Source: an uncultured Gammaproteobacteria bacterium (lineage in GTDB: Bacteria > Patescibacteriota > Patescibacteriia > Patescibacteriales > UBA12465). Taken from it: a stretch of DNA of 54,283 bases. The translations under genes and the position numbers were made by a program. Position 1 is the stretch's first letter, and each line of letters opens with the position of its first letter. The notes beneath the pieces are model-generated. The model did not search any database, was not told where the DNA came from, and worked only from the letters and a program-made list of their open reading frames with translations. The DNA lies in NCBI GenBank assembly GCA_964440365.1, contig CAYTRX010000001.1:12180-66462 (forward strand). Reading direction: 5' to 3'. This document shows, piece after piece, positions 10,569 through 42,391 of this stretch.

Positions 10569-10579
10569 AATTCTAAGCA

Positions 10580-10612
10580 AAGACCCTCGTGAATAACGAG
10601 GGTCTTTTTATT
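10580..10612. terminator. Bidirectional rho-independent terminator between the convergent clpP and surface-protein genes
   Basis: AAGACCCTCG (10580-10589), loop tgaataa, CGAGGGTCTT (10597-10606), followed by TTTTATTT. There is an A-rich stretch on the other side. Confidence 0.7.
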
Positions 10613-10659: not shown

Positions 10660-11841
10660 TTATTTTAAAGTAAATGATTTAATCATCATATTAAAAATAT
10701 TATAAAAAATATTTTCTTGCCCGCTTGGAGTGCTATATAAGATAGTATAAACGTTTTTAAAATTATTATCAGTAAAATAAAAGGCAGTTTTATCAGAACT
10801 ATAAAGACCTTGCCAATTATTATTTTTTATCAAAGCGCCTTCGTCCATAAGCTCAAAAAAACGATTAGCATACCAGGCTCTAATATTTTGTTTTTCCGTA
10901 TTTTCCTCTACCATTACTTGAATATGAGATGATTCGTTAATAGGAAAAACAATAGAAGAGTCGTTACTCAAAGCATTTGCCTCCCAAGCTGAAGGATGTA
11001 AAAAAGAAAAATTTAAATTTTTACTTACAAATTTGGCGATATTAACATTTTCTTCTAACCTACCTTTTCCAGTTGGATTATATAAGTTTTTTAATTCCTC
11101 CAAATCGGAATAGCCATCGCCATCAGAGTCTACATTAAGCTTATCACTGCCTAAAAGCACCTCCTCTTCATCAGATAAGCCATCTCCATCGGAATCTAAA
11201 AATTCAAATACTTTTAACTCTTCGTTAGCTTCATTTTCCAAAGCATCATCACTTTCTACTATATCATCAGTCAAAACCAAATCTTCTTCATCTATAGATA
11301 AAGCCTCCTCATCGTTAAATAAATCTTCATCTAAATTTGGTTTTGAATTATTAATTTCGTCTAAATTATTGTCAATATTGTCATTTATAATATTGGCAAT
11401 ATCTTTTCCGCCCAAACTTTGCTGTTCTAAATTATTTTTATTAGAACCTAAATTGAAAATATTAGTTAAAGAGAAATTGGGATTAACAACATAAGAAATC
11501 ATTATATAAACTAAAAAAGCCAAAAATAATAATCCTAAAAACAAAAGAATAATACCAGTTTTTTTTCTTTTTGGCTGATAATCATAATTTGAAGAAGCTG
11601 AAGAAGATTTTGCCGCAAACATCGATTTTTTTTTGGGCGAAGAGAATTTAGCCTCTTTTTCTAAAGAAGAGATATCAATATTTTTTTTATCAGAAAAACG
11701 ACCAATTTTATAATTTTTTGGCATTTTATAAACTGTAAAAGACAACTCCTCTTCTACACCATTAGTATTATTCTCTTTTTTTGTTTTTTGTGCTTTTTTT
11801 GTTTTTTTAAACATATCTAGTAAGGAATTTAACAAACTCAC
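10660..11841 (-). CDS. Single-pass membrane protein with an acidic linker, thrombospondin-type-3-like Ca-binding repeats and a C-terminal globular domain
   Basis: Lys-rich N-terminus, TM GIILLFLGLLFLAFLVYIMISYV, a D/E/N-rich linker, then DSDGDGLSDEEEVLLGSDKLNVDSDGDGYSDLEELKNLYNP (D.D.DG..D..E loops). Confidence 0.6.
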   Translation of the reverse strand: MSLLNSLLDMFKKTKKAQKTKKENNTNGVEEELSFTVYKMPKNYKIGRFSDKKNIDISSLEKEAKFSSPKKKSMFAAKSSSASSNYDYQPKRKKTGIILLFLGLLFLAFLVYIMISYVVNPNFSLTNIFNLGSNKNNLEQQSLGGKDIANIINDNIDNNLDEINNSKPNLDEDLFNDEEALSIDEEDLVLTDDIVESDDALENEANEELKVFEFLDSDGDGLSDEEEVLLGSDKLNVDSDGDGYSDLEELKNLYNPTGKGRLEENVNIAKFVSKNLNFSFLHPSAWEANALSNDSSIVFPINESSHIQVMVEENTEKQNIRAWYANRFFELMDEGALIKNNNWQGLYSSDKTAFYFTDNNFKNVYTILYSTPSGQENIFYNIFNMMIKSFTLK

Positions 11842-11905: not shown

Positions 11906-12739
11906 TTATTGAACTATTTTTTGATAAATAGCTGGAAATCTTTCTGAAAAAAGAGTGATATCCTTGATTTGATCTAATTTTAATCTTCCTTCTCCTAAAG
12001 GACTAAAGCCTGATTCAATTTCTAAGCCATCAGGATAACCATCTGCATCAGAATCTACATTAAGTGGATTAGTGCCAAAAATAAATATTTCATCATAGTC
12101 AGACAAACCATCACCATCACTATCATGATTATTAGGGTCAGTATTATAAACATAAATTTCATCATAATCAGATAAACCATCGTAATCAGAATCCATTTCC
12201 TTTAAAAGATTATCACTATTTTCAGTTAAAGCATCGTCGTTTGTTGTAGTTGAATTAATCATTAGATCTTCAATAATAAAATCATCTTCCTCAATTAAAT
12301 TGATACTTGAAGTAGCATCTTCAGAAGAAGAGTCAAAGTTAAAATCATTTCCAGTTTTATTATCAAGATTTAAATTTATAGAATTGTTTTCTGAATTTGG
12401 AACTTGATTTAAAGTTCGGGGAACTAATATTTTAGCATAAACAATATAAGCCAATAGAGCAATAATAGCTAAAATTAAAATGGTTATTAGCATTTTTTTA
12501 ATAATTTTTCCGCCAACATTAGACCTTGGCTCATCGTCAAAATCAGCTAAACTAGCTGCTTCTTTGGCAGAAATTTGATCAACCTGCTGTTTAATACCAG
12601 GAAGATCAACATTCGGCATCGCTTTGGAAAACGGTGCATTATTTTGAGTTGAAAAAGAAGCTTCATCTTCTATGCGATCAGAATCAGCAAAAATGTCGTC
12701 TACCTTTTCTGACTCTTTGTTGTTAAGATTGTCAAACAT
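11906..12739 (-). CDS. Single-pass membrane protein with thrombospondin-type-3-like Ca-binding repeats (paralogous architecture to 10660..11841)
   Basis: TM ITILILAIIALLAYIVYAKILV, then DSDYDGLSDYDEIYVYNTDPNNHDSDGDGLSDYDEIFIFGTNPLNVDSDADGYPDGLEIESGFSPLG. Confidence 0.6.
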   Translation of the reverse strand: MFDNLNNKESEKVDDIFADSDRIEDEASFSTQNNAPFSKAMPNVDLPGIKQQVDQISAKEAASLADFDDEPRSNVGGKIIKKMLITILILAIIALLAYIVYAKILVPRTLNQVPNSENNSINLNLDNKTGNDFNFDSSSEDATSSINLIEEDDFIIEDLMINSTTTNDDALTENSDNLLKEMDSDYDGLSDYDEIYVYNTDPNNHDSDGDGLSDYDEIFIFGTNPLNVDSDADGYPDGLEIESGFSPLGEGRLKLDQIKDITLFSERFPAIYQKIVQ

Positions 12740-12792: not shown

Positions 12793-15681
12793 TTAAATAC
12801 CACCGGCTTCAGATGGCCAAAAAGCATCACCATCATCACCTTTAATACAACGAAGTGACATTGCGCTATTGCTAGCACCACTAGTGCTTCTGTTAATACC
12901 TTTTTCACTCACCATAATTTCTCTGTACTGAGAGCTGCCTGATGAAACCTCTTTAGTGCTAATAAAACGACTAGAGCCGTCTACTGAGCTAAAAGAGTTT
13001 TCTCCGACCCCTTTTATAGCATAGCCACCTAAAAGTGCTTTAAAATCATTTATACCAATAAATCTTATTTTTTGCCCAACTCCAACCCCTTCATCACATT
13101 TCCAGCCATCACTTGAAACAGATGCTGTCCGGCAGGGACTAGAAGATGCGTTAAGATAGTTTTCTAAAATCATCCAATCACTGTTTAGGGCGACCCTGAA
13201 TCCAGGAGGGCAAATTCCTCTTTTATTATAATTTATATTGGCCCCCGCCTCTAAGGCCTTAACTGCCTCTGTCCAAGTATATAAACCACCATAAATATCA
13301 CAATTAATACTTTTATCATCCAAACAATATTTTTCAATTATGTCATTATTACTAAAAGCACTCGAAGATGAGGTTATCATAGTGCCAACATTTAAATTAT
13401 CTTGCAACCAGCACTGATCACCAATTAAAGCTGTTTTATAATATCCCCCTTGATTTCTAATTGTTCCATTAGCATTCCAAGGGCCACCAGGATATTTTAC
13501 TAAATATGAACCACAATTACTAATTGAACTTAATTTAAAACTATCTTCTGAGCTTTTTTGATAATCATTAGATGCTTTTACTTTTATTTCTTTTTCATTA
13601 AATATAGATGATATTGTCCCAGTAATTTTGGCTTCCCCCGAAACACTGCCATCAAAAGAAAGGCCAGCTGGCAAATCTGATAATAAAACAAACTTATCGC
13701 CTTCTCCAGGATTAGTAGTTCTGATGGTGCAAGAATAATTATCCCCTAATTCAACTATCTTTAAACAATCAGAAAAATCTATTACTGGATTATTAGCGGT
13801 AACATTTATATTAAACTCTTTCTCAATGACATCGCCATGACAATCCTCAACTTTTAATTTATAATTAAAACGACCTAAATCTGAAGCATTAATAAAACCA
13901 CCAGCGCCTTTAATTATTTGCAAGGACCAATTATTATTAGTACCTATTTTTTTTAATATTGCCTTAAAGCCATTTTTAATATCGCCATATTCCACATTAT
14001 CATTATAAGCGTATTGAGTTTTGTAAGTATTATTTGCCCAACAAGAATCTCTTCCCCAGCAAATAGAAACCAAACGATCATTAGCGCCCGCTCCACACAA
14101 TTCTCCATTTGATTTAATTTTATTAGTAAAATTAATTCCAATATCTTGTTGAAAATCATTTCCATAACTAACATTATGTTCTATATCACCAGCTATAATT
14201 TGTGGAGAAGCTGGAGTAATATTTATAGTTATTCCTTCCTCTCTGGAAGCCCCTAAAATATCTCTTAATCTAATTTTAAACTTATAAAGTCCGGTGGTAT
14301 TAGCTCGACCAGCATTTCGAGCTCTAATTATTTTTTGATTTGGATTATTGGTGTTTTCAATTGTCAAAGGAAGACCCCAGCCATTATTTTGAAAAACAGA
14401 ATCTAAAGGCCCTACTAATTCCCAAAAAATTGGATGATTTTCAGCATCTTTGGCCATTATTGAAGCAGCAAATTCGTTTCCAGCTGACCCGGTCAAGGTT
14501 TTATTACTACTAATATAAGGCGCGGTATTAGTAGCTGAAGCACTAGAACCAATATTAAAATCAGCTCCCAAACTAGCAACTGTACAAGAATTGCTCGACA
14601 TCAAACCGCCATCGGCTAAAGTATAATTATACCCACCTAGAGCTGTTTCCATGGTCGCGCAAAGTTTATAATTAGAGCCTTCAGAATTACCAAGATAAGT
14701 AATAGCATAGCTAGCAGCCGGTAAAATAAAATTGTCGTGATTAACTGGCGCTCCATTATGTGAATCTAAAAAGAAAACATTGTCAACCGCATTCCAGCAA
14801 GTATCTAAATTAAATTTACCTTCCTCATCATAACAAGATCCTAATTTATTGATTGGGTCGGAAACAGAACTAATACCAATTTGATTTAAAAAAGAATTTT
14901 GCCAACTAGGCCAAGTAGAAATTGCAACATGAGGCAAATAAGTACCAGCCCCTAAAATAGGGTATCTCCCATTAACACTATAATAATTTTGAATCTTTTC
15001 TTTTAGTAAAACAATTTTTTCTAAACGATCTAAATCACGTACTATTTTTGCTTTTAAACCCGAACAAAATAAATTAGATGGACAGTCAGAATCTAAAATA
15101 CAAACTGGGGTATCTTTTAAATTTTCTGAATCGCTTTCAGCAATTACACATTTATTAGCTTGTAAACCGGAAAGGTTAGATCCACTATTTCCACAAACAT
15201 ATCCATCCGGACAATCAGAAGAATTTTTACAAGTCTTATCAGAAATTAAACAATGACCAAGTTGATCATTTAATTCAATATTATTATTAAATTTCCAATT
15301 TTTTAAAATTCGACCAAAAATATCAATTGTTTTTTGATCAGCCCGCTGATCATAAGAAATTAAATAAATATTAGTATATAATTTATTATCAATAATATTG
15401 GTAGCAGAAACATAAACTGTTCGACCATCACGTATCGCCTTATAACCATCAACAATCATGCTTTGAGGTGAACCAGTAAAGCCCTGTAGCTGATACCAAC
15501 GTTGAGCACTAAGATGATGGGGATTAGGAATAACTCTAACAGCTAAAGCATCGGGAGAATTATTAGAGGCTTCTTGCGCTAGAACTTTATTGCTTATAGA
15601 AAAAGAAAATAAAACAAATATTATTAAAACTAATAATAAAGAATTGCTGATATATAAAAATTTAAGAGAAATGTTTTTCAT
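12793..15681 (-). CDS. Secreted 962-aa surface protein ending in a FISUMP (Fibrobacter succinogenes major paralogous) domain
   Basis: Signal peptide ending NKVLAQE, Cys-containing and Ig-like middle sections, and a C-terminal YKTALIGDQCWLQDNLNVG...GGLYTWTEAV...GICPPGFRVALNSDWMILENYL...LLGGYA...MSLRCIKG pattern (nt about 12796-13520). Confidence 0.7.
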   Translation of the reverse strand: MKNISLKFLYISNSLLLVLIIFVLFSFSISNKVLAQEASNNSPDALAVRVIPNPHHLSAQRWYQLQGFTGSPQSMIVDGYKAIRDGRTVYVSATNIIDNKLYTNIYLISYDQRADQKTIDIFGRILKNWKFNNNIELNDQLGHCLISDKTCKNSSDCPDGYVCGNSGSNLSGLQANKCVIAESDSENLKDTPVCILDSDCPSNLFCSGLKAKIVRDLDRLEKIVLLKEKIQNYYSVNGRYPILGAGTYLPHVAISTWPSWQNSFLNQIGISSVSDPINKLGSCYDEEGKFNLDTCWNAVDNVFFLDSHNGAPVNHDNFILPAASYAITYLGNSEGSNYKLCATMETALGGYNYTLADGGLMSSNSCTVASLGADFNIGSSASATNTAPYISSNKTLTGSAGNEFAASIMAKDAENHPIFWELVGPLDSVFQNNGWGLPLTIENTNNPNQKIIRARNAGRANTTGLYKFKIRLRDILGASREEGITINITPASPQIIAGDIEHNVSYGNDFQQDIGINFTNKIKSNGELCGAGANDRLVSICWGRDSCWANNTYKTQYAYNDNVEYGDIKNGFKAILKKIGTNNNWSLQIIKGAGGFINASDLGRFNYKLKVEDCHGDVIEKEFNINVTANNPVIDFSDCLKIVELGDNYSCTIRTTNPGEGDKFVLLSDLPAGLSFDGSVSGEAKITGTISSIFNEKEIKVKASNDYQKSSEDSFKLSSISNCGSYLVKYPGGPWNANGTIRNQGGYYKTALIGDQCWLQDNLNVGTMITSSSSAFSNNDIIEKYCLDDKSINCDIYGGLYTWTEAVKALEAGANINYNKRGICPPGFRVALNSDWMILENYLNASSSPCRTASVSSDGWKCDEGVGVGQKIRFIGINDFKALLGGYAIKGVGENSFSSVDGSSRFISTKEVSSGSSQYREIMVSEKGINRSTSGASNSAMSLRCIKGDDGDAFWPSEAGGI

Positions 15682-15730: not shown

Positions 15731-18700
15731 TTAATCTTTTAAGCAACGAATACCATATCCAAATCTTTTTTCTATTTTACCTAAACCATTAATTTGATTT
15801 GTATTATTATTTATATTTAAATAATAAGCATTTTTTCCATCTTCATTAGGATCTTCAGTTGATGTCCATAAATAAGACTGGCTTATTACTTTACTATTTT
15901 TTGTAAACGCATAACCGATAGAAAGAGCATTAAAGCCAGAAGAATTATTATTTTGTAAATTTTTACCTATAGAACAATAAACAGAAGATGTGTTCCAACT
16001 AATATTAGAAGCTAAAGCTTTAGCTAAATAATTGTATTGACCGTCACATTGATATTCTGAATTACTATTTAAATAATCAAATAATTGTTGAAAGTCAGAT
16101 TTTGAAGGAACGTGCCAACCCGGTGGACAAAGGCCTTGAGATCTTTCCTCATTTTCCCCAGCCATAGCTGCACTCCATTGATATAAATAACCGTTATTAC
16201 CACCATAAGCTGTTACACACCATCCAGTATCTTCTCCCAAAACCTCTTGTCTACCAGAACAACCATTATTATACCTTAAATTTTCCGCAAACCAACATTG
16301 TTCACCTATTTTTACTGTGCTATAAGTATATCCTTGATATTCAATACCAGAACAATCACTAGTTCCTCCACTAGCTCTAACCTTAATAATATTTGAATAT
16401 CCTAAAATTTTATTTCCATTACGAGCTTGAATTCTAATAAAATAATCTTTATTATTTGCAAGACCATAAATTGTGGCTTCACAAACATTCTTACCTACAA
16501 AATTTTCGGTATCACAAAAAGATAAATCATAAGCATTTAATCCTGAGCTTATTTTATCAAAATCTAAATTTGAGGCAACAAGATCTTTTTTAATATAATA
16601 TGAAGTAATCCCTGCTTGAGGAGAGTCCCAGGATAAATAAACCTGTCCACCAACCCCTGGATCAACATATGAAACATTAATAAGGTGCTCAAAAGTTACA
16701 GCACTTGAAATCGTAGGAGAAGTCTCTAATAAAGTATTTCCATTATAAACTAACACTTCAAAAGTATAATCAAAACCATCTCTTAAATTAAATATTTCAT
16801 AAGAGCAAGAATATTTATCAGATACTAATGGACACCAAGAAGAGTTTTTATTTATATATAAAGGAGGGTTGTGTCCATGATTATTAGAATGCTTAATAAA
16901 AACCCTTGTAAATTCTTGTTCGGAAGAAACATCAAAAGAAACCTTTACCGCCCCTCCAATACCAAGATCTATAACCTTAAAATTTGTTATTAAAGGAGGA
17001 GCAGTTGGTGTAGCTGAAATTCTTATAGGTCCTTCTAGTTGTATATTATTATTATAAATAGAGAAATCAATATTATAAAGTCTATCATTTATTAAATCCT
17101 GCAAAAGATAGGTGCATAAATATTCACTGCCATCTTCGCTTAAATTACAAACATTGTTTTTTAGGAGATTAGAGGTAGTAAAAGAGCCGCCCTGAGGCTG
17201 TCGAGACAATTCAAATTTTGTAAATTCTAGATAACGATCCGCATTAATCTTCCAAGAAACTTTTAGCGTTCCGCCTTCTGCTGTGTCAATGGCTTTGTAA
17301 TCCCTTAACATCGGAACATAAGGAATGGTTGGAGTGGCTGAAACAATTGGTGAAGTTTCTCTTTTTTCAGCTCCCACAAAAACATCAAGATAAAAATTAT
17401 ATTTTTGATTATTAGTTAAGCCATTAGTAGTATGGGAGCATTGACGTTTATTATTTACTACTGGTCCACAAACACTTGGCTCCAAAGAAACAGTAGTAGC
17501 GCCACTTACTCCAACCGGATCTCGATGTAATAAAAATCTAGTAAATTCTCGATTAGCAGCCATTTCCCAAGTAAGTTTCACTTTTCCACCAGTGCCCACA
17601 TCAACGGCTGAAAAATTTGACAACATCGAAACATAAGTTGGCGTAGCTGAAACACTAGGTGAAACTTCCATTCTTCTGCCATCATGATAAACCTCAAAAT
17701 AAACACTATAATTAACATTATTTTCTAATCCTTGTAAATTATAGGCGCACAAATATTCATTTTCTTTTAATTCACAAATACTTTTTTCTAAAGGCATACT
17801 AGCCAAATTTCCTCCTTGAGCTTGGTAAAATAATTTAAAACCAGAGAAGTCTCGATCTTTATTAATTTTCCAAGAAAGTCTTAAATTTCCTCCGGTTTCA
17901 GTATTAACAGCTTGAAAACCTCTAACCATAGCAACATAAGGAGAAGTTGGAGTGACTGAAACCACCGCAGAGGTGTGAATTATTCTTGCCTCATTTAAAG
18001 TTTCAATATAAAAATCATGTTCTAAATTATCGGTTAAATTATCTAAATCAAGAGAACAAGAATAAACATTATTTGATAAATTACAATTAGCCCCCTCTTT
18101 TGTTCGATAAATCTTTGTTGTTTCACCATTTTTAGGAGTTTGATAAATAGTAAATTTAGTAAAGTCTCGCTCATTACTAGCCTTCCAAGTAAGCTTGACT
18201 TTTCCACCAGTACCTAAATTAGTAGCTACTAAATTTGTTACGATTGGGATTGGTGTATTAGTTGGCATCGCGCTAACAAAACGAGAAAAGCCAAGTTCAG
18301 TGCCAGCAGAAGATAAAGCTGTTACTTTTAAATTATATCGTCGATCTTCTTCTAAATTTCGCAATCTATAATTACATTTATATTTAGTATTATTGGAGAT
18401 TTTTGAACAATCACTTGATTCAGCCTGAATTGTTAAATAATTATTATTAGAGCCCTCTCGTTGATAAAGAACTTTAAAAAATTTAACATTAGAACCTCCG
18501 GAGTTAACGGCTGATTCCCAGTAAAGATCTAATTCATTACCACGCAGAGCATCAGAGGCGGTAAATGGCTCCACAAAAGGAATAAAAGCTGGGGTAACTG
18601 AAGTATAAAAAGACGAACCAAGCTCCATTGAATTGCCATCTAGTGCAGCAACTCTAACATTATAAGAATAATCTGAGCTTAATCCACTTAGGGTATAGGA

Positions 18701-21700
18701 ACAATGATATCTAGAATCTATTGTTGAGCAGTTTGAAATAGGTATTAAATTAGAAAGAATATTATTAGGTGAGCTAGCTATAGCATAATAAACTCTAAAA
18801 TTAGCTATATTATTAGTATCCGAGACCCAAGATAGTCTTACGCTAGATCCGTCGCTATTAGGCAAAGCCTCAAAAGAAGATATAAACCGAGCGCGAGAAG
18901 TTCGGAAAAGATAAGTTTCTTTCAAAAAACTAACGATACATAAAGCATTACCTGGGCAATCACTATTATTAGAGCAACTAATAGTTGGATCATTACTACA
19001 TACTTTAAATAAACTATTACCTTTAATAACCGCTGAATCACTCATAAAGGCTGGCAAGTCATCACTTAGATCGCCATCTCTACCAGCATCTCGACAATAA
19101 TAAAACTCATAATTATAAACACTAGTATTAAAAGAAGGTGAATCTACCCAAGGTGTCCAAGTGCCATCGCTTTTAACCGCTGGCCAAGGATTTTTACAAA
19201 GCAAAACATAAATATTGACTTCTGCATTTTTCCCCTCCCCATCATTAATAATATTATTTTCATCCATCTTTACTGTTGCTCGCAATGAAGATTTGCCATC
19301 TGTGATATTAGGTTTGACTTGAACTAAACGATTAGAAGAATTTTGTGCCCAGGCGACAACATTATCATTAAACTCAATAACATTGGTGTTGCTAATACTC
19401 CAATTATAAGTCCAAGAGTAATTATCATTTGGACCAATGATTTGTCCATCGCTAGTTTTAGCTTTGACAGAAAAAGCCTTATCTTTATCAGGAGCTGAGT
19501 CAAAACTAGCATGACGAGCATCGCTATCATTTTCGTTCAAATCGTTTTTATTGTCCTGAAATAAATACGAACTAGGATTAATTTCTAAATTATCAATAAC
19601 ACAAATTCCCTGTCCGGAAGTATTGCTAGACAAGGTTTCAAAAGACCAACTATAAGAATTTTTATAAGAATTGAAAAAAGTTGAAGGATTAACAACGCCA
19701 TTATTATAAACATTTCCTCCATTCATGGCGATACCAGTAAAAGCCCTTACTCCGCTTCCACTATTTAAATTCTCATCACCCTTAACCACAACAAAATATT
19801 TTGCTGAAGCTTCTAATAATTGTTTGGGTTTAAAATAAACTGTACTTTTATTAACGCCATGATTAATCTCAACACTTCCCATTACTGAGCAGTAAACGGG
19901 ATCACCAGCCGCTATACTTTTCTTAACAAAAATTTTTGCTAACGGCGCCACAACCTTATTTAAAGCTCTTTTTATTTTGGCTAAGAAACCTGATTGATAA
20001 ACAGGCTCCCAATCAGATCTATTTAAACCAGCAATTTTTTGTGTACCACTCGGACAAGTAGCACCACTTTCTTTTTCTTGTATTAATAAAATGTTTCCGT
20101 CTAAAGAAGGGGCGTCCATTCGTTGATCAAAATTTATTTCAATAATAGCGTTGCGACAAATACTATTTTTCGCCGGTTCCGGTAAAACACTAGTAATTGA
20201 AGGTCGAGCATAGCAACAAGAATCAAAACCACAACCAATATTGCTTGGGCTTTGTCCTTCTATTACACAATCATTATCTGAAAAACAACCACAACAAAGA
20301 CCTCGATTAGTACCAGTACAAGCTCCTTTATCAGCTAAACAAGTTAAATTTTCTCCTACTTGCTTACAAACATCTTCGGTAGAAATATTAGTAGGCTTAC
20401 AGCAACAACTACCACAAGTTTCTGGATCAGTTGTTATATTAATAGGTGTATTGCCATCTTCATTTAAACAAGAAAAAATATTACAGAAAATATTACTGCA
20501 GACATTTCCATCATAACAAGTAGTTCCTGCTCCAGCCGGCATAGCCTGACACTTAGTATTACAAGCAGAAAAATTAGTAAAAAGTTTATTATAAAAAGCT
20601 TCGTTGGTAGTAGTAGATTTTAAACAAACATTTCCTGCGGTTTCACAATTATAAAAAGCGCAGAGGCCATAATTATCGTCAGTCGATGAAGTAGAAACAT
20701 CATATTTTGCGCCACCTAAACAGTTCACTAATTCTGTTGTTGTTCCGGTTTCTGTTTTTATTTCTATTATTTTAGGACTATTACTCCAACAACAAGATCC
20801 ATTAGCCTTACAAGCAGCTTCATTTGTAATAGCACCACAATTTGCCCCACAACCAATCCGACAAAGATAATCATTTTTATAAGTTCCACTTTTTTTTGGA
20901 ATAGAAGAACATATTGTTGGATTTTGTGAATCACAATCATAATAAGGACAAAAACCGATATCACTAGATCCCTCTCCCCAGATATCAGCGCCAGAAGCAC
21001 CAGCACGACATTTGCTTTCACTTTCATCCCAACAACAAACAGCACTATGGGCTTTACAAGCCTCTCCTTTTAATTCAGCACAGTCTAAACAAGCACCATT
21101 AGGATAACTTGTATCACAATATTTTCCAGAACTTGTTAAGCAATTACAAGCCAAATCCCTAGCCTCTGTATTATTTCCAGCTACCTTACAACCAGAACAT
21201 AAACCTAAAGTTGAAGAAGTAGCACTAGGACCACAAGTAGAAGCGCAAATTAAAGGATGACAACAATCTGGATTTTGTGGAACTTGATCTGAAGTAGTTG
21301 CGTTTTTACTTTTATCACAACAACATTCACAAGCACCTTCGGTGCTAGTAGCACAAATACCTGGTGAATTAGGGCATTGATACCTCTTATCTAAAGGACA
21401 AAAAAGGAAGTCGGAACAACTTTCGGCATTATTAGGAGGATTAAAAGTAAAATCATTAAGTCCAGTCACAAATCTCCATTGAAAAAATGAACTTTTTGGC
21501 ACATCAGCAAAACAAGCACTTTCATTTTCTACACAAGCCCCCGCATTCGGTGTACCAATTAAACAACAATGAGGGATAGCCCCAGAACAATTTTCATTTT
21601 TTGTACAAGTACCAACTGAAAAATTAAGGCTATTACCAGTTTGGCCACTTCGCTTAACTTTTACTGGTCCGCTTAAAGAATTAGCTGGTACATTAACTGA

Positions 21701-23692
21701 AATTTTACTTGCTCCATTTTCAACACTAGCAGTAGCCGGAGCAGTCTCTTTTTCTTTATAAAAAACAGCCGAAGCACTTTCACCAAAATATTCACCCCAT
21801 AAAGACACATTGGTATTATGCGGACCAAAGCTTGGTGAAATCTTACAAACGCTTGGCATTAAAGGTATTGTTGAGCTAACATTAAACTTACCAAAATTAT
21901 TTGAATCTACTTCATTCCAAGAATCTATTTTTACAACTAAATCATAATTTCCATCTACTATACCGGAAGGAACTTTAACTAAAATTTGACTATCAGACCA
22001 TAAATTATCAGCGCAAACCGCTGGAAAACTAAAGTTAGCTTCGGTTTTATCGCTATTTAATTTAAAATAAACAGAACTATTTCCTCGATATCGACCAAAA
22101 TTAGCCCCCAAAATACTTACATATTGTCCAGCCGAACCAGCACTAGGAGAAAAAGAAGAAATAAAAGGACCAGCTGGCGCATCAGCCTTCTTTAAAAAAC
22201 TTAGACTATTACTATTAATTCCATTTTTTTTAACAAAAGTGCTAGTATCTCCAGCTCTTAAACTAGGAACGGTAGCGGCACCACTAGTGTCATTTGTAAT
22301 TTTATTAGGAGCAAAAGCTAAAACATTATTAAATAAATTACCAAAATAAACTTCAGAATTTTTTAAACCAACACCATAATAATAAATAGCCTCATTGGCC
22401 TCAGCTTCAGTGGGACTAATATTACAAATTCCAGGACGAGAAATATTGTTAATTTTTAAACCTTCTATTTTTGGTCCAAAATCATCTTTACTTCTATCGC
22501 TTTTACCATCTTGAGTAATAACCTCAAGCTCAAAATCATCTCCCACTAATAAACTATTATTTTGCGGAACAGCCATTATAATTTTACTATTAGTCCAAGT
22601 GTTATCACAATTATTATTTAATTCTTGTGGATTTCGTAAAGGAATAATTGTCTCTCCTTTTATTAAATTAACAACTGAAGACTCGCTATAAGTATTAAAA
22701 TTTTGTCCAAAAATACTAATAAGATTACCTTTAGCCGTATTAGCCGTAGTTTTATCGCAAGTAGAGCCAGGGCAATGACTATCTTCTTCACAAAATCTAT
22801 TAATATCATTAACGCAAAAACCTCCAACTGGACTAATGGCTAAAATAAGAGGCTCACCAACACATTTACAGGTTGTAGTATCGCAAGATAATCCATGATG
22901 AGGATTACAAGTGTTTTCAGTTCCGGTACAAGTATCACCCGCATTACAAGGTTCACCTAATTCCGAATAATTGCTTTCATCAGGTAAACAACGACAGGAT
23001 GTTTGGTCACAAAAAGAATTTTCGCCACAATCAACTTCATCATCTATTGTACAAACACCATCAGAAACAGTACCGCAAGGTTTATATTCACAACGACAAG
23101 AATTCAAGCCACAAATTAAGCCATTTTTACATTGAGTATCGTCCGGATCACAGGCATTTGGGTTTGATGAACACCAAGAGTCATGATCTCCAGGCGAACA
23201 AGTAGAGCCAATACAAGGCCCCCAAGAACCATCAGTACAAAAAGATTTTCCATCACAACCACAATTTCGATATTCACCATCTACACAAGGGCCACCAATT
23301 GTTCCTGTCGCCCCTCCCAAACGATTTAAAACAAAAATTGTTATTCCCCAAGAAGCCAAAATAATAAGTAAGCCAATTATCCCAGCCTTTAAAATTCTCT
23401 TGGCTTTATTTACCTTTTCTTCTTCACCCCCTGAGCTCATCCACATAAAACCAGCATAAATCACAATAGCGACAGCAATAACACCCAAAAAACTCATGGC
23501 GATATTTATAATTCGAGCAACCATTGTTCGTGGATCCTTATCCCCCAAAGCAATATCATTGGCGACTACATCAGCTCCAAAAATATCATTAGCCAAAACT
23601 GGTTTAGAGAAATTAAACAAAAAACTCAAGGCTAAAAATAAAAAAACACCTAAAGAAAATAATTTAAAAAATTTATTTTTTTTATTAAACAT
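15731..23692 (-). CDS. Giant 2653-aa membrane-anchored surface protein. Order: TrbC/VirB2-like pilin-type anchor, Cys-rich module, IPT/TIG repeats, Cys-rich module, Ig-like region, 8 FN3-like repeats, FISUMP domain.
   Basis: One uninterrupted ORF. The N-terminus has a signal/TM followed by IINIAMSFLGVIAVAIVIYAGFMWMSSGGEEEKVNKAKRILKAGIIGLLIILASWGITIFVLN, a two-helix pilin-like hairpin. ISP..G...ISI.G.NF-type IPT motifs occur. The C-terminus reads VKIGEQCWFAENL...GYLYQWSAAM...GLCPPGWHVPSKSDFQQL...YLWTSTE...GYGIRCLKD. Confidence 0.85.
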   Translation of the reverse strand: MFNKKNKFFKLFSLGVFLFLALSFLFNFSKPVLANDIFGADVVANDIALGDKDPRTMVARIINIAMSFLGVIAVAIVIYAGFMWMSSGGEEEKVNKAKRILKAGIIGLLIILASWGITIFVLNRLGGATGTIGGPCVDGEYRNCGCDGKSFCTDGSWGPCIGSTCSPGDHDSWCSSNPNACDPDDTQCKNGLICGLNSCRCEYKPCGTVSDGVCTIDDEVDCGENSFCDQTSCRCLPDESNYSELGEPCNAGDTCTGTENTCNPHHGLSCDTTTCKCVGEPLILAISPVGGFCVNDINRFCEEDSHCPGSTCDKTTANTAKGNLISIFGQNFNTYSESSVVNLIKGETIIPLRNPQELNNNCDNTWTNSKIIMAVPQNNSLLVGDDFELEVITQDGKSDRSKDDFGPKIEGLKINNISRPGICNISPTEAEANEAIYYYGVGLKNSEVYFGNLFNNVLAFAPNKITNDTSGAATVPSLRAGDTSTFVKKNGINSNSLSFLKKADAPAGPFISSFSPSAGSAGQYVSILGANFGRYRGNSSVYFKLNSDKTEANFSFPAVCADNLWSDSQILVKVPSGIVDGNYDLVVKIDSWNEVDSNNFGKFNVSSTIPLMPSVCKISPSFGPHNTNVSLWGEYFGESASAVFYKEKETAPATASVENGASKISVNVPANSLSGPVKVKRSGQTGNSLNFSVGTCTKNENCSGAIPHCCLIGTPNAGACVENESACFADVPKSSFFQWRFVTGLNDFTFNPPNNAESCSDFLFCPLDKRYQCPNSPGICATSTEGACECCCDKSKNATTSDQVPQNPDCCHPLICASTCGPSATSSTLGLCSGCKVAGNNTEARDLACNCLTSSGKYCDTSYPNGACLDCAELKGEACKAHSAVCCWDESESKCRAGASGADIWGEGSSDIGFCPYYDCDSQNPTICSSIPKKSGTYKNDYLCRIGCGANCGAITNEAACKANGSCCWSNSPKIIEIKTETGTTTELVNCLGGAKYDVSTSSTDDNYGLCAFYNCETAGNVCLKSTTTNEAFYNKLFTNFSACNTKCQAMPAGAGTTCYDGNVCSNIFCNIFSCLNEDGNTPINITTDPETCGSCCCKPTNISTEDVCKQVGENLTCLADKGACTGTNRGLCCGCFSDNDCVIEGQSPSNIGCGFDSCCYARPSITSVLPEPAKNSICRNAIIEINFDQRMDAPSLDGNILLIQEKESGATCPSGTQKIAGLNRSDWEPVYQSGFLAKIKRALNKVVAPLAKIFVKKSIAAGDPVYCSVMGSVEINHGVNKSTVYFKPKQLLEASAKYFVVVKGDENLNSGSGVRAFTGIAMNGGNVYNNGVVNPSTFFNSYKNSYSWSFETLSSNTSGQGICVIDNLEINPSSYLFQDNKNDLNENDSDARHASFDSAPDKDKAFSVKAKTSDGQIIGPNDNYSWTYNWSISNTNVIEFNDNVVAWAQNSSNRLVQVKPNITDGKSSLRATVKMDENNIINDGEGKNAEVNIYVLLCKNPWPAVKSDGTWTPWVDSPSFNTSVYNYEFYYCRDAGRDGDLSDDLPAFMSDSAVIKGNSLFKVCSNDPTISCSNNSDCPGNALCIVSFLKETYLFRTSRARFISSFEALPNSDGSSVRLSWVSDTNNIANFRVYYAIASSPNNILSNLIPISNCSTIDSRYHCSYTLSGLSSDYSYNVRVAALDGNSMELGSSFYTSVTPAFIPFVEPFTASDALRGNELDLYWESAVNSGGSNVKFFKVLYQREGSNNNYLTIQAESSDCSKISNNTKYKCNYRLRNLEEDRRYNLKVTALSSAGTELGFSRFVSAMPTNTPIPIVTNLVATNLGTGGKVKLTWKASNERDFTKFTIYQTPKNGETTKIYRTKEGANCNLSNNVYSCSLDLDNLTDNLEHDFYIETLNEARIIHTSAVVSVTPTSPYVAMVRGFQAVNTETGGNLRLSWKINKDRDFSGFKLFYQAQGGNLASMPLEKSICELKENEYLCAYNLQGLENNVNYSVYFEVYHDGRRMEVSPSVSATPTYVSMLSNFSAVDVGTGGKVKLTWEMAANREFTRFLLHRDPVGVSGATTVSLEPSVCGPVVNNKRQCSHTTNGLTNNQKYNFYLDVFVGAEKRETSPIVSATPTIPYVPMLRDYKAIDTAEGGTLKVSWKINADRYLEFTKFELSRQPQGGSFTTSNLLKNNVCNLSEDGSEYLCTYLLQDLINDRLYNIDFSIYNNNIQLEGPIRISATPTAPPLITNFKVIDLGIGGAVKVSFDVSSEQEFTRVFIKHSNNHGHNPPLYINKNSSWCPLVSDKYSCSYEIFNLRDGFDYTFEVLVYNGNTLLETSPTISSAVTFEHLINVSYVDPGVGGQVYLSWDSPQAGITSYYIKKDLVASNLDFDKISSGLNAYDLSFCDTENFVGKNVCEATIYGLANNKDYFIRIQARNGNKILGYSNIIKVRASGGTSDCSGIEYQGYTYSTVKIGEQCWFAENLRYNNGCSGRQEVLGEDTGWCVTAYGGNNGYLYQWSAAMAGENEERSQGLCPPGWHVPSKSDFQQLFDYLNSNSEYQCDGQYNYLAKALASNISWNTSSVYCSIGKNLQNNNSSGFNALSIGYAFTKNSKVISQSYLWTSTEDPNEDGKNAYYLNINNNTNQINGLGKIEKRFGYGIRCLKD
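16385..18900 (-). repeat. Array of eight diverged FN3-like repeats of about 100 aa inside the giant gene (approximate boundaries)
   Basis: Each unit shows ..F.A.D.G.GG.VKL.W......F..F.L......, then C-x(7-11)-C-x-Y/H-x-L..L.....Y.F....., ending S..VSATPT. Examples are IVTNLVATNLGTGGKVKLTWKASNERDFTKFTIY and MLSNFSAVDVGTGGKVKLTWEMAANREFTRFLLH. Confidence 0.7.
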
Positions 23693-23781: not shown

Positions 23782-24021
23782 CTATTTTTTTCTAAAAATA
23801 TTTACAAAATCTATTTTTTTACTTATTTCATCAAAAAATCGAGAAAGTCTAGTAATAAAATCAATAATATCATTTGCCAAAGGAACCTCACTTAAATCTC
23901 CTTGTTTAAAATTAAAAAAGTAAAAAGAAAAAGCAATTAAAACAAAAAAGGTCACCACCAAAGCTAAGGTGCTGATAAAGGCTTTAATTTTTTTGGTTGT
24001 TATTCTAGAAATAATTTTCAT
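23782..24021 (-). CDS. Small hypothetical membrane protein (79 aa)
   Basis: ORF with one clear TM (AFISTLALVVTFFVLIAFSFYFF). No recognisable family. Confidence 0.35.
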   Translation of the reverse strand: MKIISRITTKKIKAFISTLALVVTFFVLIAFSFYFFNFKQGDLSEVPLANDIIDFITRLSRFFDEISKKIDFVNIFRKK

Positions 24022-32914: not shown

Positions 32915-34054
32915 ATGAAGAAAATATTTTTCTTATCTTTTTTATCTTTGCTTTTTTTATTCCCAGTTGCTACTAAGGCTTATACTATTAAAGCTGACGA
33001 ATTTATTTATATTAGCAAAGATGAAGTAGTAGAAGGTAATCTTTATTTTATGGCCAATAGCATTACTGTTGAAGGCGAAATCTTGGGCGATCTTATTGGT
33101 CTGGCTTCCAATGTTTCAGTTAATGGACATGTTAGTGGCGATTTAATTACCCTTGCCCAAGATATTAAAGTTAATGGGCAAGTTGATGGTAATTTGAGGG
33201 CTTTAGCTAGTTCAGCAACAATTTCCGGAAAAATTAATAAAAACATTAATTATGCTGGAGAAAATTTATTTTTAGAAAATGATTCTAATATTGGCCAAGA
33301 TACTCTAATAGCTGTTGACAGAGCTGAACTAAAAGGAAAAATTAAAGGTAATGCTCACGGTTTAAGCAATAGTCTTTTAATTTTAGGGTCGGTTGATAAA
33401 AACGTAGATTTTGTTTTAGATAAAGTAAAAAGAAAAAAATATCTTAGTACTTTAAAAATCGGTGGGTCAGCTGAAATTGGTGGGGACCTAAATTATCAAG
33501 CTGGCAATGAAGCTTCTATTGAAAGTGAAAATATCAAAGGCAATATTTTGCACAAAGAACCAATAGCAGCCGCCAAAGGAAAAATTAGCATCTCTTCCTT
33601 ACTTTATTCAATATTATCATTATTTATTTTATCTGTAATTTTACGAGCTTTATTTAAAGAGCCTTTAAAAAAAGTAAAGCGACTTATTATTAAAAAAAAT
33701 ATCAGATTAAGTGGTTGGGGGCTCCTCTTTTTATTCGCTACCCCAATCATCGCCTTACTTCTAATGTTTACTATTATCGCCCTACCAATAGCGATTATTA
33801 TTTTAATTATTTGGGGTCTAATTTTATACCTAAGTAAAGCAATATTAGCTATGGCCTTGGGTGATTATATTTTCCGAAAATTAAAAAAAGAAAAAACTCA
33901 TGCTTATTTAAGAATACTACTCGGATTAATAATTGTCTGCCTTTTAACCGCCCTTCCTTATATTGGCTTCATCTTCTCTCTATTAATTATTAGCATTGGA
34001 ATGGGAGCTTTTTACGAATTAAGTTTTAAGAAAAAAAATAGCGCTCAATCCTAG
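32915..34054 (+). CDS. Exported/membrane protein with bactofilin-like (polymer-forming cytoskeletal, beta-helix) repeats and a C-terminal polytopic anchor
   Basis: Signal peptide MKKIFFLSFLSLLFLFPVATKA. It is followed by repetitive G.L..LA..V.V.G.V.GDL units (GDLIGLASNVSVNGHVSGDLITLAQDIKVNGQVDGNLRALASSATISGKI) and 4 or more C-terminal TM helices. Confidence 0.5.
   Translation: MKKIFFLSFLSLLFLFPVATKAYTIKADEFIYISKDEVVEGNLYFMANSITVEGEILGDLIGLASNVSVNGHVSGDLITLAQDIKVNGQVDGNLRALASSATISGKINKNINYAGENLFLENDSNIGQDTLIAVDRAELKGKIKGNAHGLSNSLLILGSVDKNVDFVLDKVKRKKYLSTLKIGGSAEIGGDLNYQAGNEASIESENIKGNILHKEPIAAAKGKISISSLLYSILSLFILSVILRALFKEPLKKVKRLIIKKNIRLSGWGLLFLFATPIIALLLMFTIIALPIAIIILIIWGLILYLSKAILAMALGDYIFRKLKKEKTHAYLRILLGLIIVCLLTALPYIGFIFSLLIISIGMGAFYELSFKKKNSAQS

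Positions 34055-42317: not shown

Positions 42318-42391
<74 letters not shown>

What the first reader, a model, noticed from the sequence alone, without database searches (positions are those of the whole stretch)
15731..23692. Giant 2653-aa surface protein built on a TrbC/VirB2-like pilin anchor
A single 7.96-kb ORF encodes the whole protein. After a signal/TM segment it has a two-helix hairpin, IINIAMSFLGVIAVAIVIYAGFMWMSSGGEEEKVNKAKRILKAGIIGLLIILASWGITIFVLN (nt about 23310-23540). This resembles the small T4SS-pilin-like (TrbC/VirB2-type) proteins common in CPR bacteria. Instead of ending there, the protein continues for about 2500 residues. These comprise a Cys-rich module (about 22850-23290), IPT/TIG-type repeats (about 21620-22850), and a second very Cys-dense module with CC and CCC runs (about 20200-21620). 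Ig-like segments, eight FN3-like repeats and a C-terminal FISUMP domain follow. Fusing a conjugative-pilin-like membrane hairpin to a giant modular adhesin-like ectodomain is not a characterised architecture. In an episymbiotic CPR cell it is a prime candidate for a host-attachment or host-recognition fibre.
Basis: partly seen in the sequence, partly recalled or inferred. Interest (0 to 1): 0.7.

Follow-up and report, generated by a model that had tools for sequence, protein, structure and literature searches.

The report
Giant surface fibre on pilin-type anchor
An ultra-small (Patescibacteria/CPR) bacterium encodes a 2653-residue, disulfide-rich surface protein whose membrane anchor is a full copy of the small VirB2-like "T4SS pilin" of these bacteria; the design is real and widespread in this phylum, I found no description of it in the literature I searched, and it could be an attachment fibre or the adhesin not yet found for their secretion-system pili.

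Summary
ORF 15731..23692 (-) encodes 2653 aa. The identical protein was assembled independently from another sequencing run, and 12 variants of 94-100% identity have the same length, so it is not an assembly artefact.

Residues 1-134 align end to end with free-standing 108-144-aa PF18895 "T4SS_pilin" proteins (50-55% identity, E 6e-28). They pass Pfam's cut-off, and a profile aligns weakly with Agrobacterium VirB2. The only three hydrophobic segments lie in residues 1-126. All 128 cysteines come after residue 134.

The rest consists of a Cys-knot module, 4 IPT/Ig domains, a 465-aa Cys module, Big_5/Ig domains, a conserved NPWP-YYCRDAG module, 8 fn3 and a FISUMP end domain.

It is not a one-off: 109 protein clusters (grouped at 90% identity) matched the full-length protein, nearly all with this design. 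In 14 loci the gene heads a conserved four-gene envelope cassette with no T4SS ATPase within 10 kb. The hairpin is the most conserved part; the far end is the most variable.

Best reading: a membrane-anchored, extended surface fibre with a variable binding tip. A real alternative is that it is built into a T4SS pilus. I rate it a new variant of a known kind; its function has not been tested.

The parts
23591..23692 (-). Signal peptide, residues 1-34 (MFNKKNKFFK..., hydrophobic core, PVLA|ND cleavage-type site)
   Evidence: Hydropathy. AF2 helix 6-27. A34 aligns with the xxA site of free pilins.
23312..23590 (-). VirB2-like T4SS_pilin module, residues 35-127: short external N-extension with the DPR motif, helix 54-85, charged loop SSGGEEEKVNKAKRILK, helix 91-127
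   Evidence: PF18895 scores 29.0 bits against a cut-off of 26.6. 50-55% identity, E 6e-28, to free 108-144-aa pilins. hhalign against VirB2 gives 72.6% probability. AF2 predicts a hairpin. It is the most conserved region of the family.
22850..23290 (-). Cys-rich module 1, residues 135-281 (24 Cys, small beta-hairpin knots)
   Evidence: Cys count. Cys are invariant across 39-77 homologues. AF2 pLDDT 57-82. The best Foldseek match of the whole model is the plexin ectodomain.
21608..22849 (-). Four IPT/TIG-type Ig domains, residues 282-695
   Evidence: Pfam TIG, 2 stretches. AF2 shows four beta-sandwich domains at pLDDT about 90. Foldseek matches plexin IPT domains, E 2e-14.
20213..21607 (-). Cys-dense module 2, residues 696-1160 (62 Cys, with CCC and CC runs); no known fold assigned
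   Evidence: Most Cys are invariant or nearly so in the family. AF2 confidence is mixed. The leading Foldseek matches of the model are Ig-domain proteins; which part of the model they cover is not reported.
19253..20212 (-). Big_5 (SbsA-type) Ig domain with an insertion, plus further Ig-like domains, residues 1161-1480
   Evidence: Pfam Big_5 at 1163-1217. AF2 and Foldseek match S-layer protein SbsC (E 3e-6) and PrgB Ig-like domains.
18893..19252 (-). Conserved module with motifs C-x-NPWP ... W-x-PW-x-D ... YNY-x-FYYCRDAG ... DDLP ... LKE-x-Y-x-F, residues 1481-1600. It marks the end of the family-wide conserved core.
   Evidence: Nearly invariant columns in the alignments. BLAST coverage of the query by family members falls off after about residue 1600. 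No Pfam hit.
16343..18892 (-). Eight divergent fn3 repeats, residues 1601-2450 (lineage-variable extender)
   Evidence: Pfam fn3, 8 stretches, E 3e-45. No DNA tandem repeats. Among close variants this region is the most variable, up to 25% of sites in repeats 7-8.
15731..16342 (-). C-terminal FISUMP (Fib_succ_major) domain, residues 2451-2653, plus the stop codon
   Evidence: PF09603 89 bits; TIGR02145 94 bits. 11% of sites vary among close variants.
23785..24021 (-). Conserved 78-aa single-pass membrane ORF directly upstream of the giant gene
   Evidence: 53% and 34% identity to ORFs at the same position in L001 and L003.
12793..15681 (-). Conserved secreted partner, 962 aa (signal peptide, conserved N-terminal about 700 aa, He_PIG-like Ig, FISUMP end)
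   Evidence: Pfam. 35% identity over about 700 aa to the gene downstream of the giant in distant loci. Present in all loci that extend past the end of the giant gene.
11906..12739 (-). Cassette gene 3: single-pass membrane protein with bacterial TSP3 (Ca-binding type) repeats, 277 aa
   Evidence: Pfam TSP3_bac E 3e-14. A homologue sits at the same position in all loci that reach this position.
10660..11841 (-). Cassette gene 4: membrane protein with a TSP3 repeat and a C-terminal domain, 393 aa
   Evidence: Pfam TSP3_bac E 5e-9. A homologue sits at the same position in all loci that reach this position.
10579..10607 (.). Strong terminator-like hairpin (12 bp stem) at the convergent end of the cassette and clpP
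   Evidence: This is a consensus scan only.

Best explanation
The protein is a giant cell-surface fibre held in the cytoplasmic membrane by a VirB2-type pilin hairpin.

Proposed course of events:
1. The Sec pathway exports the precursor and signal peptidase I cuts after PVLA34 (inferred).
2. The two hydrophobic helices (54-85 and 91-127) stay in the membrane. Their short lysine/arginine-rich loop faces the cytoplasm and both ends face outward. This topology is shown by sequence features and the AF2 model, not by experiment.
3. The remaining roughly 2520 residues leave the membrane as one extended, disulfide-stapled chain. Its order is: Cys-knot module, 4 IPT domains, large Cys module, Big_5/Ig domains, the NPWP-YYCRDAG module, 8 fn3, and a distal FISUMP domain. 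This would reach tens of nm, which is an inference from the domain count.
4. The proximal 1600 residues are the conserved stalk. The distal fn3/FISUMP part is the variable, ligand-contacting end.

The protein works together with the three genes that always follow it: a 950-1580-aa secreted partner, which in this lineage carries the same FISUMP end domain, and two TSP3-repeat membrane proteins.

The hairpin is more than a greasy anchor. It keeps the full pilin motif set, so it probably packs side by side with other pilin hairpins in the membrane, or docks to the machinery that handles them.

The likely purpose is contact with, or recognition of, another cell surface or a polymer. This is inferred and untested.
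For: - Pilin homology: PF18895 above cut-off; full-length alignment to free pilins at 50-55% identity, E 6e-28; profile alignment to VirB2 of PDB entry 8cue, probability 72.6%, E 3e-5.
- Topology: the only three hydrophobic segments lie in residues 1-126. There is no Cys in residues 1-134 and 128 after that. The loop is net positive. AF2 predicts a helical hairpin.
- Ectodomain: it consists only of extracellular-type structural modules. Foldseek matches plexin PSI/IPT, SbsC, PrgB Ig domains and the GhpA grappling hook. No enzyme fold appears.
- Family and context: the full-length search matched 109 clusters, nearly all with this design. A four-gene cassette is conserved in 14 loci, and no VirB4-size ATPase lies within 10 kb. 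No other pilin ORF occurs in the 54-kb window.
- Constraint on the hairpin: mean pairwise identity is 0.60, against 0.40-0.48 for the ectodomain modules and 0.29 for the signal peptide. Its conservation profile correlates with that of free pilins (Spearman 0.72; consensus identical at 56 of 72 positions).
- Polarity of variation among 13 close variants: 0-5% variable sites in the signal peptide, hairpin, Cys1 and IPT regions, against 11-25% in distal fn3 and FISUMP.
- The pilin C-terminus is a natural fusion point: concatenated pilins, a short Cys tail, and Big_5, PKD, LamG, Lcl_C and FISUMP tails all occur.
Against: - There are no experimental data of any kind: no expression, localisation or binding results.
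- FISUMP has no known ligand and no solved relative by sequence.
- The strong conservation of the hairpin is more than a passive anchor needs. It fits equally well with extraction into a pilus (rival 1).
- Conserved synteny among housekeeping genes would also fit a constitutive envelope layer rather than an adhesin (rival 2).
- Topology was not run through a dedicated predictor, and AF2 confidence in the hairpin is only 65-77.
Confidence: 0.5

Rival explanations
1. Pilus-borne adhesin. The hairpin is taken out of the membrane by the CPR type IV secretion system and polymerised with the small PF18895 pilins. The protein would then be a minor or tip subunit of a T4SS pilus. Its 2500-residue tail would project from the filament and act as the adhesin not so far found for this secretion system.
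For: - The hairpin matches free pilins at every conserved position and is the most constrained part of the protein.
- The closest free pilins lie in tandem arrays of 5-7 genes, like the essential array of Southlakia (PMC12102498, PMC10633639).
- PMC12102498 reports that no PrgB-type adhesins were detected in CPR. It also says the ABY1 class, to which I assign the Falkowbacteria relatives from general knowledge, is well represented among T4SS-bearing genomes.
- From general knowledge, not tested here: in solved F and T pili both pilin termini face outward, and short C-terminal fusions to F pilin are tolerated. A C-terminal tail would therefore point away from the filament.
- Concatenated 'polypilins' show that hairpins sit next to each other.
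Against: - No virB4, virD4 or free pilin gene occurs in the 54-kb window or within 10 kb in 14 related loci.
- A 2500-aa tail on every subunit cannot fit a helical filament, so the protein would have to be rare in it.
- Nobody has yet seen a T4SS pilus on any CPR cell (PMC12857230).
- The TrbC/VirB2 Pfam model is not matched.
Confidence: 0.25
2. Constitutive envelope scaffold. The protein and its three cassette partners build an S-layer-like or cell-wall-spanning coat that every cell needs. Host contact would be incidental.
For: - The cassette sits among core genes (secDF, clpP, ftsAZ, the dnaA region) with conserved order in the loci examined, whose named relatives are Falkowbacteria and Magasanikbacteria.
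- Big_5 is the SbsA/SbsC S-layer Ig domain, and SbsC is the best structural match of the middle part.
- The TSP3 Ca-binding partners fit a Ca-stabilised lattice.
Against: - The distal third is swapped between lineages: fn3/FISUMP, LamG, vWA, beta-propeller.
- The distal third is also the most variable part within a population. That is typical of a ligand-facing tip and not of a lattice-forming layer.
- From general knowledge: known S-layer proteins are not Cys-rich and are not anchored by pilin hairpins.
Confidence: 0.15
3. The pilin similarity is convergent. Any two-helix membrane hairpin would look like this, and the N-terminus is just a generic anchor.
For: - A profile of the module finds no solved pilin by sequence.
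- The TrbC model fails.
- Hairpins are of low complexity.
Against: - E 6e-28 and 50-55% identity over the whole length to free PF18895 proteins, including non-hydrophobic motifs (DPR, GGxEEK, AKK).
- The Pfam cut-off is passed.
- A profile built from this module finds 22,426 clusters at E<=1e-10.
Confidence: 0.03

Closest known systems
Small VirB2-like pilins of Patescibacteria (Pfam PF18895 T4SS_pilin), e.g. the essential six-gene pilin array in the T4SS locus of Southlakia epibionticum (PMC10633639, PMC12102498)
   Same: The whole pilin is present: signal peptide, DPR motif, two helices, the GFxWMTxGGxEEK...AKK loop and the IGLxIIL helix. Identity to free pilins is 50-55%, and the same positions are conserved.
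   Different: Free pilins end about 10 residues after helix 2. This protein continues for about 2520 residues. It is not in a pilin array or a T4SS locus.
Conjugative pilins VirB2 / TrbC / TraA (Pfam PF04956; T-pilus structures PDB 8cue, 8exh)
   Same: A long leader followed by a two-helix hairpin with a short basic loop. A profile alignment to VirB2 covers 58 columns, including the DP..MV..I...G...A...I..G..WM motif.
   Different: The PF04956 model is not matched (10.4 bits against a cut-off of 27.9), and no sequence hit to solved pilins was found. From general knowledge, VirB2 and TrbC are small and often cyclised head to tail, which a C-terminal fusion excludes.
PrgB-type surface adhesins of Gram-positive conjugation systems (pCF10)
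   Same: A surface protein with a stalk of Ig-like domains that serves cell-cell contact in a monoderm. There is a weak structural match to PrgB Ig domains (8beg, E 1.4e-4, probability 0.47-0.60).
   Different: From general knowledge, PrgB is anchored to the wall by LPXTG/sortase and is encoded in the T4SS operon. This protein ends in ...GIRCLKD without LPXTG, is anchored at its N-terminus by a pilin hairpin, and is encoded away from any T4SS gene.
Giant modular fibre adhesins: the GhpA grappling hook of Aureispira (PDB 9g8b, 9fls, 9flp), RTX ice-binding or biofilm adhesins, and the giant membrane proteins of the CPR predator Vampirococcus (PMC8080830)
   Same: A protein of several thousand residues made of Ig/fn3-type extender domains with a distinct distal domain. 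There are structural matches to GhpA fragments. In Vampirococcus such proteins are proposed to mediate host attachment.
   Different: The anchor and export route differ: a Sec signal peptide plus a pilin hairpin here. No RTX repeats or T1SS signal were found by Pfam. The two large Cys modules are particular to this family.
Type IV pilus minor pilins with large C-terminal domains (tip adhesins)
   Same: The same design logic: a pilin-type membrane or polymerisation module fused to a bulky binding domain. A relative's locus even encodes an N_methyl type IV pilin with a faint FISUMP-type hit (L003:1330-2388).
   Different: There is no homology. Type IV pilins have a single N-terminal helix and are cut by prepilin peptidase, whereas this protein has a VirB2-type hairpin.
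Plexin/semaphorin-type PSI-IPT ectodomains and S-layer protein SbsC
   Same: The best structural matches are alternating small Cys knots and IPT domains (plexin A1, E 2e-14) and SbsA/SbsC-type Ig domains (E 3e-6).
   Different: Only the fold of individual domains is shared. There is no functional or evolutionary implication beyond shared Ig-type modules.

Membership tests
Pfam PF18895 T4SS_pilin (CPR VirB2-like pilins) | Score above the curated Pfam gathering cut-off | tested here: met
   29.0 bits against a cut-off of 26.6, E 1.1e-6, residues 58-118.
Pfam PF18895 T4SS_pilin (CPR VirB2-like pilins) | Homology over the full length of free-standing family members | tested here: met
   50-55% identity, E 6e-28 to 1e-24, with 108-131-aa pilins. 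The alignment runs from the signal-peptide cleavage site to the C-terminus.
Pfam PF18895 T4SS_pilin (CPR VirB2-like pilins) | Signal peptide followed by two hydrophobic helices joined by a short charged loop | tested here: met
   Hydropathy segments at 7-34, 56-89 and 99-126. AF2 helices at 6-27, 54-85 and 91-127.
Pfam PF18895 T4SS_pilin (CPR VirB2-like pilins) | Small size (about 110-150 aa), often in tandem arrays | tested here: not met
   The protein has 2653 aa, and it is the only pilin-like ORF in the 54-kb window.
T4SS pilus subunit (functional class) | Encoded with or near T4SS machinery (virB4, virB6, virD4) | tested here: not met
   No such genes occur in the window. None lies within 10 kb in 14 related loci. 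Presence elsewhere in the genome could not be checked.
T4SS pilus subunit (functional class) | Polymerises into an extracellular filament | not testable with these tools
   This needs microscopy or biochemistry. It has not been shown for any CPR pilin (PMC12857230).
Pfam PF04956 TrbC/VirB2 | Score above the gathering cut-off | tested here: not met
   10.4 bits against a cut-off of 27.9. A related pilin fusion, P0185, reaches 24.4 bits.
Pfam PF04956 TrbC/VirB2 | Profile-level similarity to a solved VirB2 | tested here: inconclusive
   hhalign of profile A1 against VirB2 of 8cue: probability 72.6%, E 3.2e-5, 58 columns. An HMM search of PDB sequences found nothing.
NCBIfam NF045849 Mbov_0395 pilin-like conjugal transfer protein | Score above the curated cut-off | tested here: not met
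   25.9 bits against a cut-off of 40.
FISUMP / Fib_succ_major (PF09603, TIGR02145) | Score above the curated cut-offs, full-length domain | tested here: met
   89.2 bits (cut-off 33.9) and 94.3 bits (cut-off 41.65), residues 2454-2653.
fn3 / TIG / Big_5 repeat-containing surface proteins | Scores above the gathering cut-offs and predicted beta-sandwich folds | tested here: met
   fn3 152.6 bits (8 stretches), TIG 35.9 bits, Big_5 29.3 bits. AF2 domains reach pLDDT about 90.
Sortase-anchored (LPXTG) Gram-positive adhesins | C-terminal LPXTG motif followed by a hydrophobic segment and a basic tail | tested here: not met
   The C-terminus is ...RFGYGIRCLKD, and there is no hydrophobic segment after residue 126.
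RTX / T1SS giant adhesins | RTX nonapeptide repeats and a C-terminal T1SS signal; no N-terminal signal peptide | tested here: not met
   There is no RTX or haemolysin-type Ca-binding hit in Pfam at E<=1. An N-terminal signal peptide is present.

The most novel reading that the evidence does not exclude
The giant protein is a true subunit of the T4SS pilus of Patescibacteria. It would be the first VirB2-family pilin known to carry its own covalently fused adhesin. This would supply the adhesin that surveys of CPR T4SS loci failed to find. It would also explain why a conjugation-type machine is essential for the epibiotic life of these bacteria. Together with the concatenated 'polypilins', it would show that the C-terminus of this pilin family is a general display site on a monoderm T4SS filament.
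Probability: 0.22. Interest if true: 0.85.

Novelty: new variant of a known kind. Interest (0 to 1): 0.6.

Why it matters
Patescibacteria make up a large share of bacterial diversity and are thought to live attached to other cells. How they recognise and hold a host is largely unknown.

Their VirB2-like pilins are among the most abundant and most highly expressed proteins of unknown role in these bacteria (PMC10936435; bioRxiv 10.1101/2025.04.23.650224). In the one species tested by transposon mutagenesis the pilin array is essential (PMC10633639). Yet no adhesin has been linked to the system (PMC12102498).

This finding shows that the same pilin module is routinely used as the base of huge, disulfide-rich surface fibres with variable tips, encoded in a conserved envelope cassette. 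That gives concrete targets for tomography, labelling and knockouts:
- the giant protein,
- its secreted partner,
- the two TSP3-repeat membrane proteins.

It also gives a simple test of whether the 'pilins' are filament subunits or membrane anchors.

Tried and rejected
- **Assembly artefact.** Rejected.
- **Sequence search of PDB chains with the pilin profile.** No pilin was found. The link to VirB2 appeared only in a profile alignment.
- **FISUMP against PDB sequences, as a single sequence and as a profile.** Nothing was found, so no ligand or fold could be assigned.
- **Hidden enzyme or toxin domain in the conserved core.** Not found. The leading Foldseek matches of the residue 690-1620 model are Ig-type folds. 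Cys module 2 and the NPWP module have no Pfam hit or assigned fold.
- **Diversity-generating retroelement acting on the FISUMP tip.** L001 has bAvd and a reverse transcriptase 8 kb upstream. However, no template/variable repeat pair touches the giant or its partner within the locus, and the window has no reverse transcriptase.
- **T4SS genes near the giant.** None in the window or in 14 loci.
- **Promoter scan.** Not above chance (72 sites found against 62.6 expected). Only a candidate at 23753-23725 and the terminator-like hairpin at 10579-10607 are noted.
- **Literature.** Searches for PF18895, VirB2 with CPR, giant proteins, and Vampirococcus found only small pilin arrays and generic 'giant membrane proteins'. 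No paper mentioned the fusion. Papers outside the held library could not be searched.
Full report
**1. The observation**

The window has about 30% G+C and carries ftsA/ftsZ, secD/secF, clpP, yidC, rnpA, dnaA and dnaN. It is therefore a chromosomal, origin-proximal piece of a small low-GC genome. The nearest named relatives of its proteins are Patescibacteria, mostly Falkowbacteria.

ORF 15731..23692 on the minus strand starts with ATG and encodes 2653 residues. Pfam and NCBIfam find the following:
- T4SS_pilin PF18895 at residues 58-118: 29.0 bits, cut-off 26.6.
- Two TIG stretches.
- Big_5 at residues 1163-1217.
- Eight fn3 stretches (E 3e-45).
- A full-length Fib_succ_major/FISUMP domain at residues 2454-2653.

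The long ORF is not an artefact:
- TRF finds no tandem DNA repeats in it.
- The identical protein is assembled from run SRR8925755 and is present on a 66-kb NCBI contig.
- Twelve further variants of 93.7-100% identity, 2651-2656 aa long, come from other assemblies.

**2. The N-terminus is a complete pilin of the CPR type**

Residues 1-134, searched alone, find free-standing proteins of 108-144 aa that all carry PF18895. Identity is 50-55% and E-values reach 6e-28.

The alignment runs from the signal-peptide cleavage site (PVLA|N) to the last residues of the free pilins. The giant protein simply continues where they stop, about ten residues after the second helix.

The nearest free pilins lie in tandem arrays of five to seven pilin genes. 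This is the arrangement described for Patescibacteria by Quinonero-Coronel et al. (PMC12102498) and found essential in Southlakia (PMC10633639).

A profile of the module finds 69,904 clusters (grouped at 50% identity) at E<=1e-3, and 22,426 at E<=1e-10.

The link to classical conjugative pilins is weaker:
- The TrbC/VirB2 Pfam model scores only 10.4 bits.
- An HMM search of PDB sequences finds no pilin.
- A profile alignment with Agrobacterium VirB2 gives 72.6% probability over 58 columns. It lines up the DP..MV..I...G...A...I..G..WM motif directly after the leader. I checked the VirB2 sequence against PDB 8cue/8exh first.

**3. Topology**

Only three hydrophobic segments exist (7-34, 56-89, 99-126), and none follows residue 126. 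The N-terminus (MFNKKNKFFK) and the inter-helix loop (SSGGEEEKVNKAKRILK) carry the positive charges. None of the 128 cysteines lies in residues 1-134.

AlphaFold2, run with 39 homologues, predicts helices at 6-27, 54-85 and 91-127, at pLDDT 65-77 for the hairpin.

By the positive-inside rule, and by analogy with VirB2-type pilins, the mature protein has both ends of the hairpin outside and the large part extracellular. This is inference; no dedicated topology predictor was available.

**4. The ectodomain**

Model 1 (residues 1-700, mean pLDDT 80) shows small beta-hairpin Cys knots at residues 135-281. Four Ig/IPT domains follow at residues 282-695, at pLDDT about 90. Its best structural matches are plexin ectodomains, which alternate PSI Cys knots and IPT domains (E 2e-14). 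Other Ig chains also match, including fragments of the Aureispira grappling-hook protein GhpA.

Model 2 (residues 690-1620, mean pLDDT 75) gives a partly confident Cys-rich region followed by Ig-type domains. The best matches are the S-layer protein SbsC and the Ig-like domains of the conjugation adhesin PrgB. No enzyme fold appears.

Eight divergent fn3 repeats and the FISUMP domain complete the chain. FISUMP has no solved relative detectable by sequence.

**5. It is a family, and it sits in a cassette**

A full-length search matches 109 clusters (grouped at 90% identity). These proteins are 1485-4201 aa long, nearly all carry PF18895 plus TIG, Big_5 or fn3, and they come from Patescibacteria.

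Coverage and alignments show that residues 1 to about 1600 are the conserved core. It has dozens of invariant cysteines and a striking NPWP...YNYxFYYCRDAG...DDLP module. The fn3 array and the end domain are exchanged between lineages: FISUMP, LamG, vWA, beta-propeller, DUF4215-type Cys repeats.

In 14 related loci the giant gene is always followed by three genes, wherever the fetched DNA extends that far:
- A homologue of the 962-aa protein at 12793..15681 (35-56% identity). In this lineage it ends in the same FISUMP domain.
- A homologue of the TSP3-repeat membrane protein at 11906..12739.
- A homologue of the membrane protein at 10660..11841.

In more distant lineages a second pilin fusion (pilin plus Big_5, 744-913 aa, hairpin 52% identical) lies directly upstream. 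In this lineage that position holds a conserved 78-aa membrane ORF instead.

No VirB4-sized ATPase or other T4SS gene lies within 10 kb in any locus. A custom pilin HMM finds no other pilin ORF in the window.

**6. What constrains the hairpin, and where variation sits**

Across 39 family members the hairpin is the most conserved segment. Its mean pairwise identity is 0.60. The ectodomain modules reach 0.40-0.48 and the signal peptide 0.29.

The conservation profile of the hairpin matches that of 57 free pilins (Spearman 0.72), and the consensus residue is identical at 56 of 72 positions. A passive anchor would not be expected to keep the polar motifs DPR, GGxEEK and AKK. I therefore infer that the hairpin performs the same molecular act as in the free pilins, whatever that is: lateral packing, polymerisation, or recognition by a machine.

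Among the 13 close variants the fraction of variable sites rises from base to tip:
- 0-5%: signal peptide, hairpin, Cys1, IPT.
- 9-11%: Cys2, Big_5/Ig.
- 11-25%: FISUMP and fn3 repeats 4, 7 and 8.

This is the polarity expected of a fibre with a fixed base and an exposed, fast-changing far end.

**7. The pilin C-terminus is a general fusion site**

Among the best 150 matches of the pilin profile:
- Many proteins are 'polypilins': one signal peptide followed by 2-17 concatenated hairpins.
- About 15 are single N-terminal pilins with tails of 336-2602 aa carrying Big_5, PKD, TIG, LamG, Lcl_C or FISUMP.
- One (P0121) has only a short Cys-rich tail.

**8. Mechanism**

Best explanation (0.5): a Sec-exported surface fibre, processed by signal peptidase and anchored in the cell membrane by the pilin hairpin. 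It has a conserved disulfide-stapled stalk and a variable binding end, and it acts together with the three cassette partners.

Rival 1 (0.25): the hairpin is polymerised into a T4SS pilus and the tail is the pilus adhesin. The pilin-grade conservation and the reported lack of any CPR T4SS adhesin (PMC12102498) speak for it. The absence of T4SS genes nearby, steric limits, and the fact that no CPR T4SS pilus has yet been observed (PMC12857230) speak against it.

Rival 2 (0.15): a constitutive S-layer-like scaffold. The core-gene context and the SbsC-type domains speak for it. The swapped and variable distal part speaks against it.

Convergence of the hairpin (0.03) is effectively excluded.

**9. 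Comparison with what is known, and novelty**

The literature I could search describes small VirB2-like pilin arrays in CPR (PMC12102498, PMC10633639, PMC12857230). It reports T4SS-pilin genes among the most highly expressed unknowns in Paceibacterales (PMC10936435). It also describes generic 'giant membrane proteins' proposed for host attachment in Vampirococcus (PMC8080830).

None of these papers mentions a pilin hairpin as the base of giant modular proteins, and none mentions this cassette. Database annotation already lists the domains: source names include 'IPT/TIG domain-containing protein', and PF18895 is precomputed on the hits. The architecture is therefore visible but unremarked.

I rate it a new variant of a known kind: a VirB2-type pilin carrying a giant ectodomain. 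Interest is 0.6. The finding is solid, widespread and relevant to how these bacteria contact hosts, but function is untested and the parts are individually familiar.

Noticed in passing
P0122, P0123, P0128, P0139, P0158 and others (sequences): 'Polypilins': single proteins with one signal peptide followed by 2-17 concatenated PF18895 hairpins joined by external linkers of about 25-30 aa. P0122 has 6 hairpins in 552 aa and P0158 has 17 in 1775 aa. They suggest that hairpins sit side by side and that the C-terminus can be extended. I have not seen them described.
   Followed up: partly
L005:7234-9975, L006:7330-9990, L007:7760-9994: A second pilin fusion (PF18895 plus Big_5, 744-913 aa) lies directly upstream of the giant gene in more distant lineages. 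Its hairpin is 52% identical to the giant's (measured for the L006 copy). In this window the position holds only a conserved 78-aa membrane ORF (23785..24021, minus strand).
   Followed up: partly
L003:1330-2388: A type IV pilin (N_methyl motif) with a faint Fib_succ_major hit lies about 8 kb upstream of the giant gene in a relative. If the hit is real, FISUMP-type domains would be displayed on a type IV pilin, a VirB2-type pilin and a plain secreted protein in the same neighbourhood.
   Followed up: no
L001:1-1683: Diversity-generating-retroelement genes (bAvd accessory protein and a reverse transcriptase) lie 8 kb upstream of the giant gene in a relative. No template/variable repeat pair reaching the giant or its partner was found within the locus.
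   Followed up: yes
window 44538-45763 (+): An IS3-type transposase in two ORFs (HTH_Tnp_1, then rve/rve_3). It lies inside the 42-54 kb stretch, which is lower in G+C (0.21-0.27 against about 0.30 elsewhere).
   Followed up: no
window about 42000-54000: Cumulative GC skew reaches its minimum near 40-42 kb. rnpA, yidC, dnaA and dnaN follow at 46.8-53.7 kb. The window therefore spans the replication-origin region, and the cassette lies about 27-40 kb from dnaA. PMC12102498 notes that CPR T4SS genes often sit near dnaA, but none are here.
   Followed up: no
window 12793-15681 (-), residues about 40-400: The N-terminal half of the conserved partner protein is well conserved across lineages. Examples are the motifs AVRIVPNP.H.S..RWY..QGF.GSPQ and NGRYP.L.AGTY. 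It has no Pfam match, so it is an unnamed domain family tied to this cassette.
   Followed up: partly
L014:7764-14845: In one MAG the giant gene is split into two overlapping ORFs (1341 and 1048 aa). This could be a frameshift, a pseudogene or a sequencing error in that assembly.
   Followed up: no
window 32915-34054 (+) and 43061-43489 (+): Two bactofilin-domain genes lie in the window. The first has a long extension beyond the bactofilin domain.
   Followed up: no
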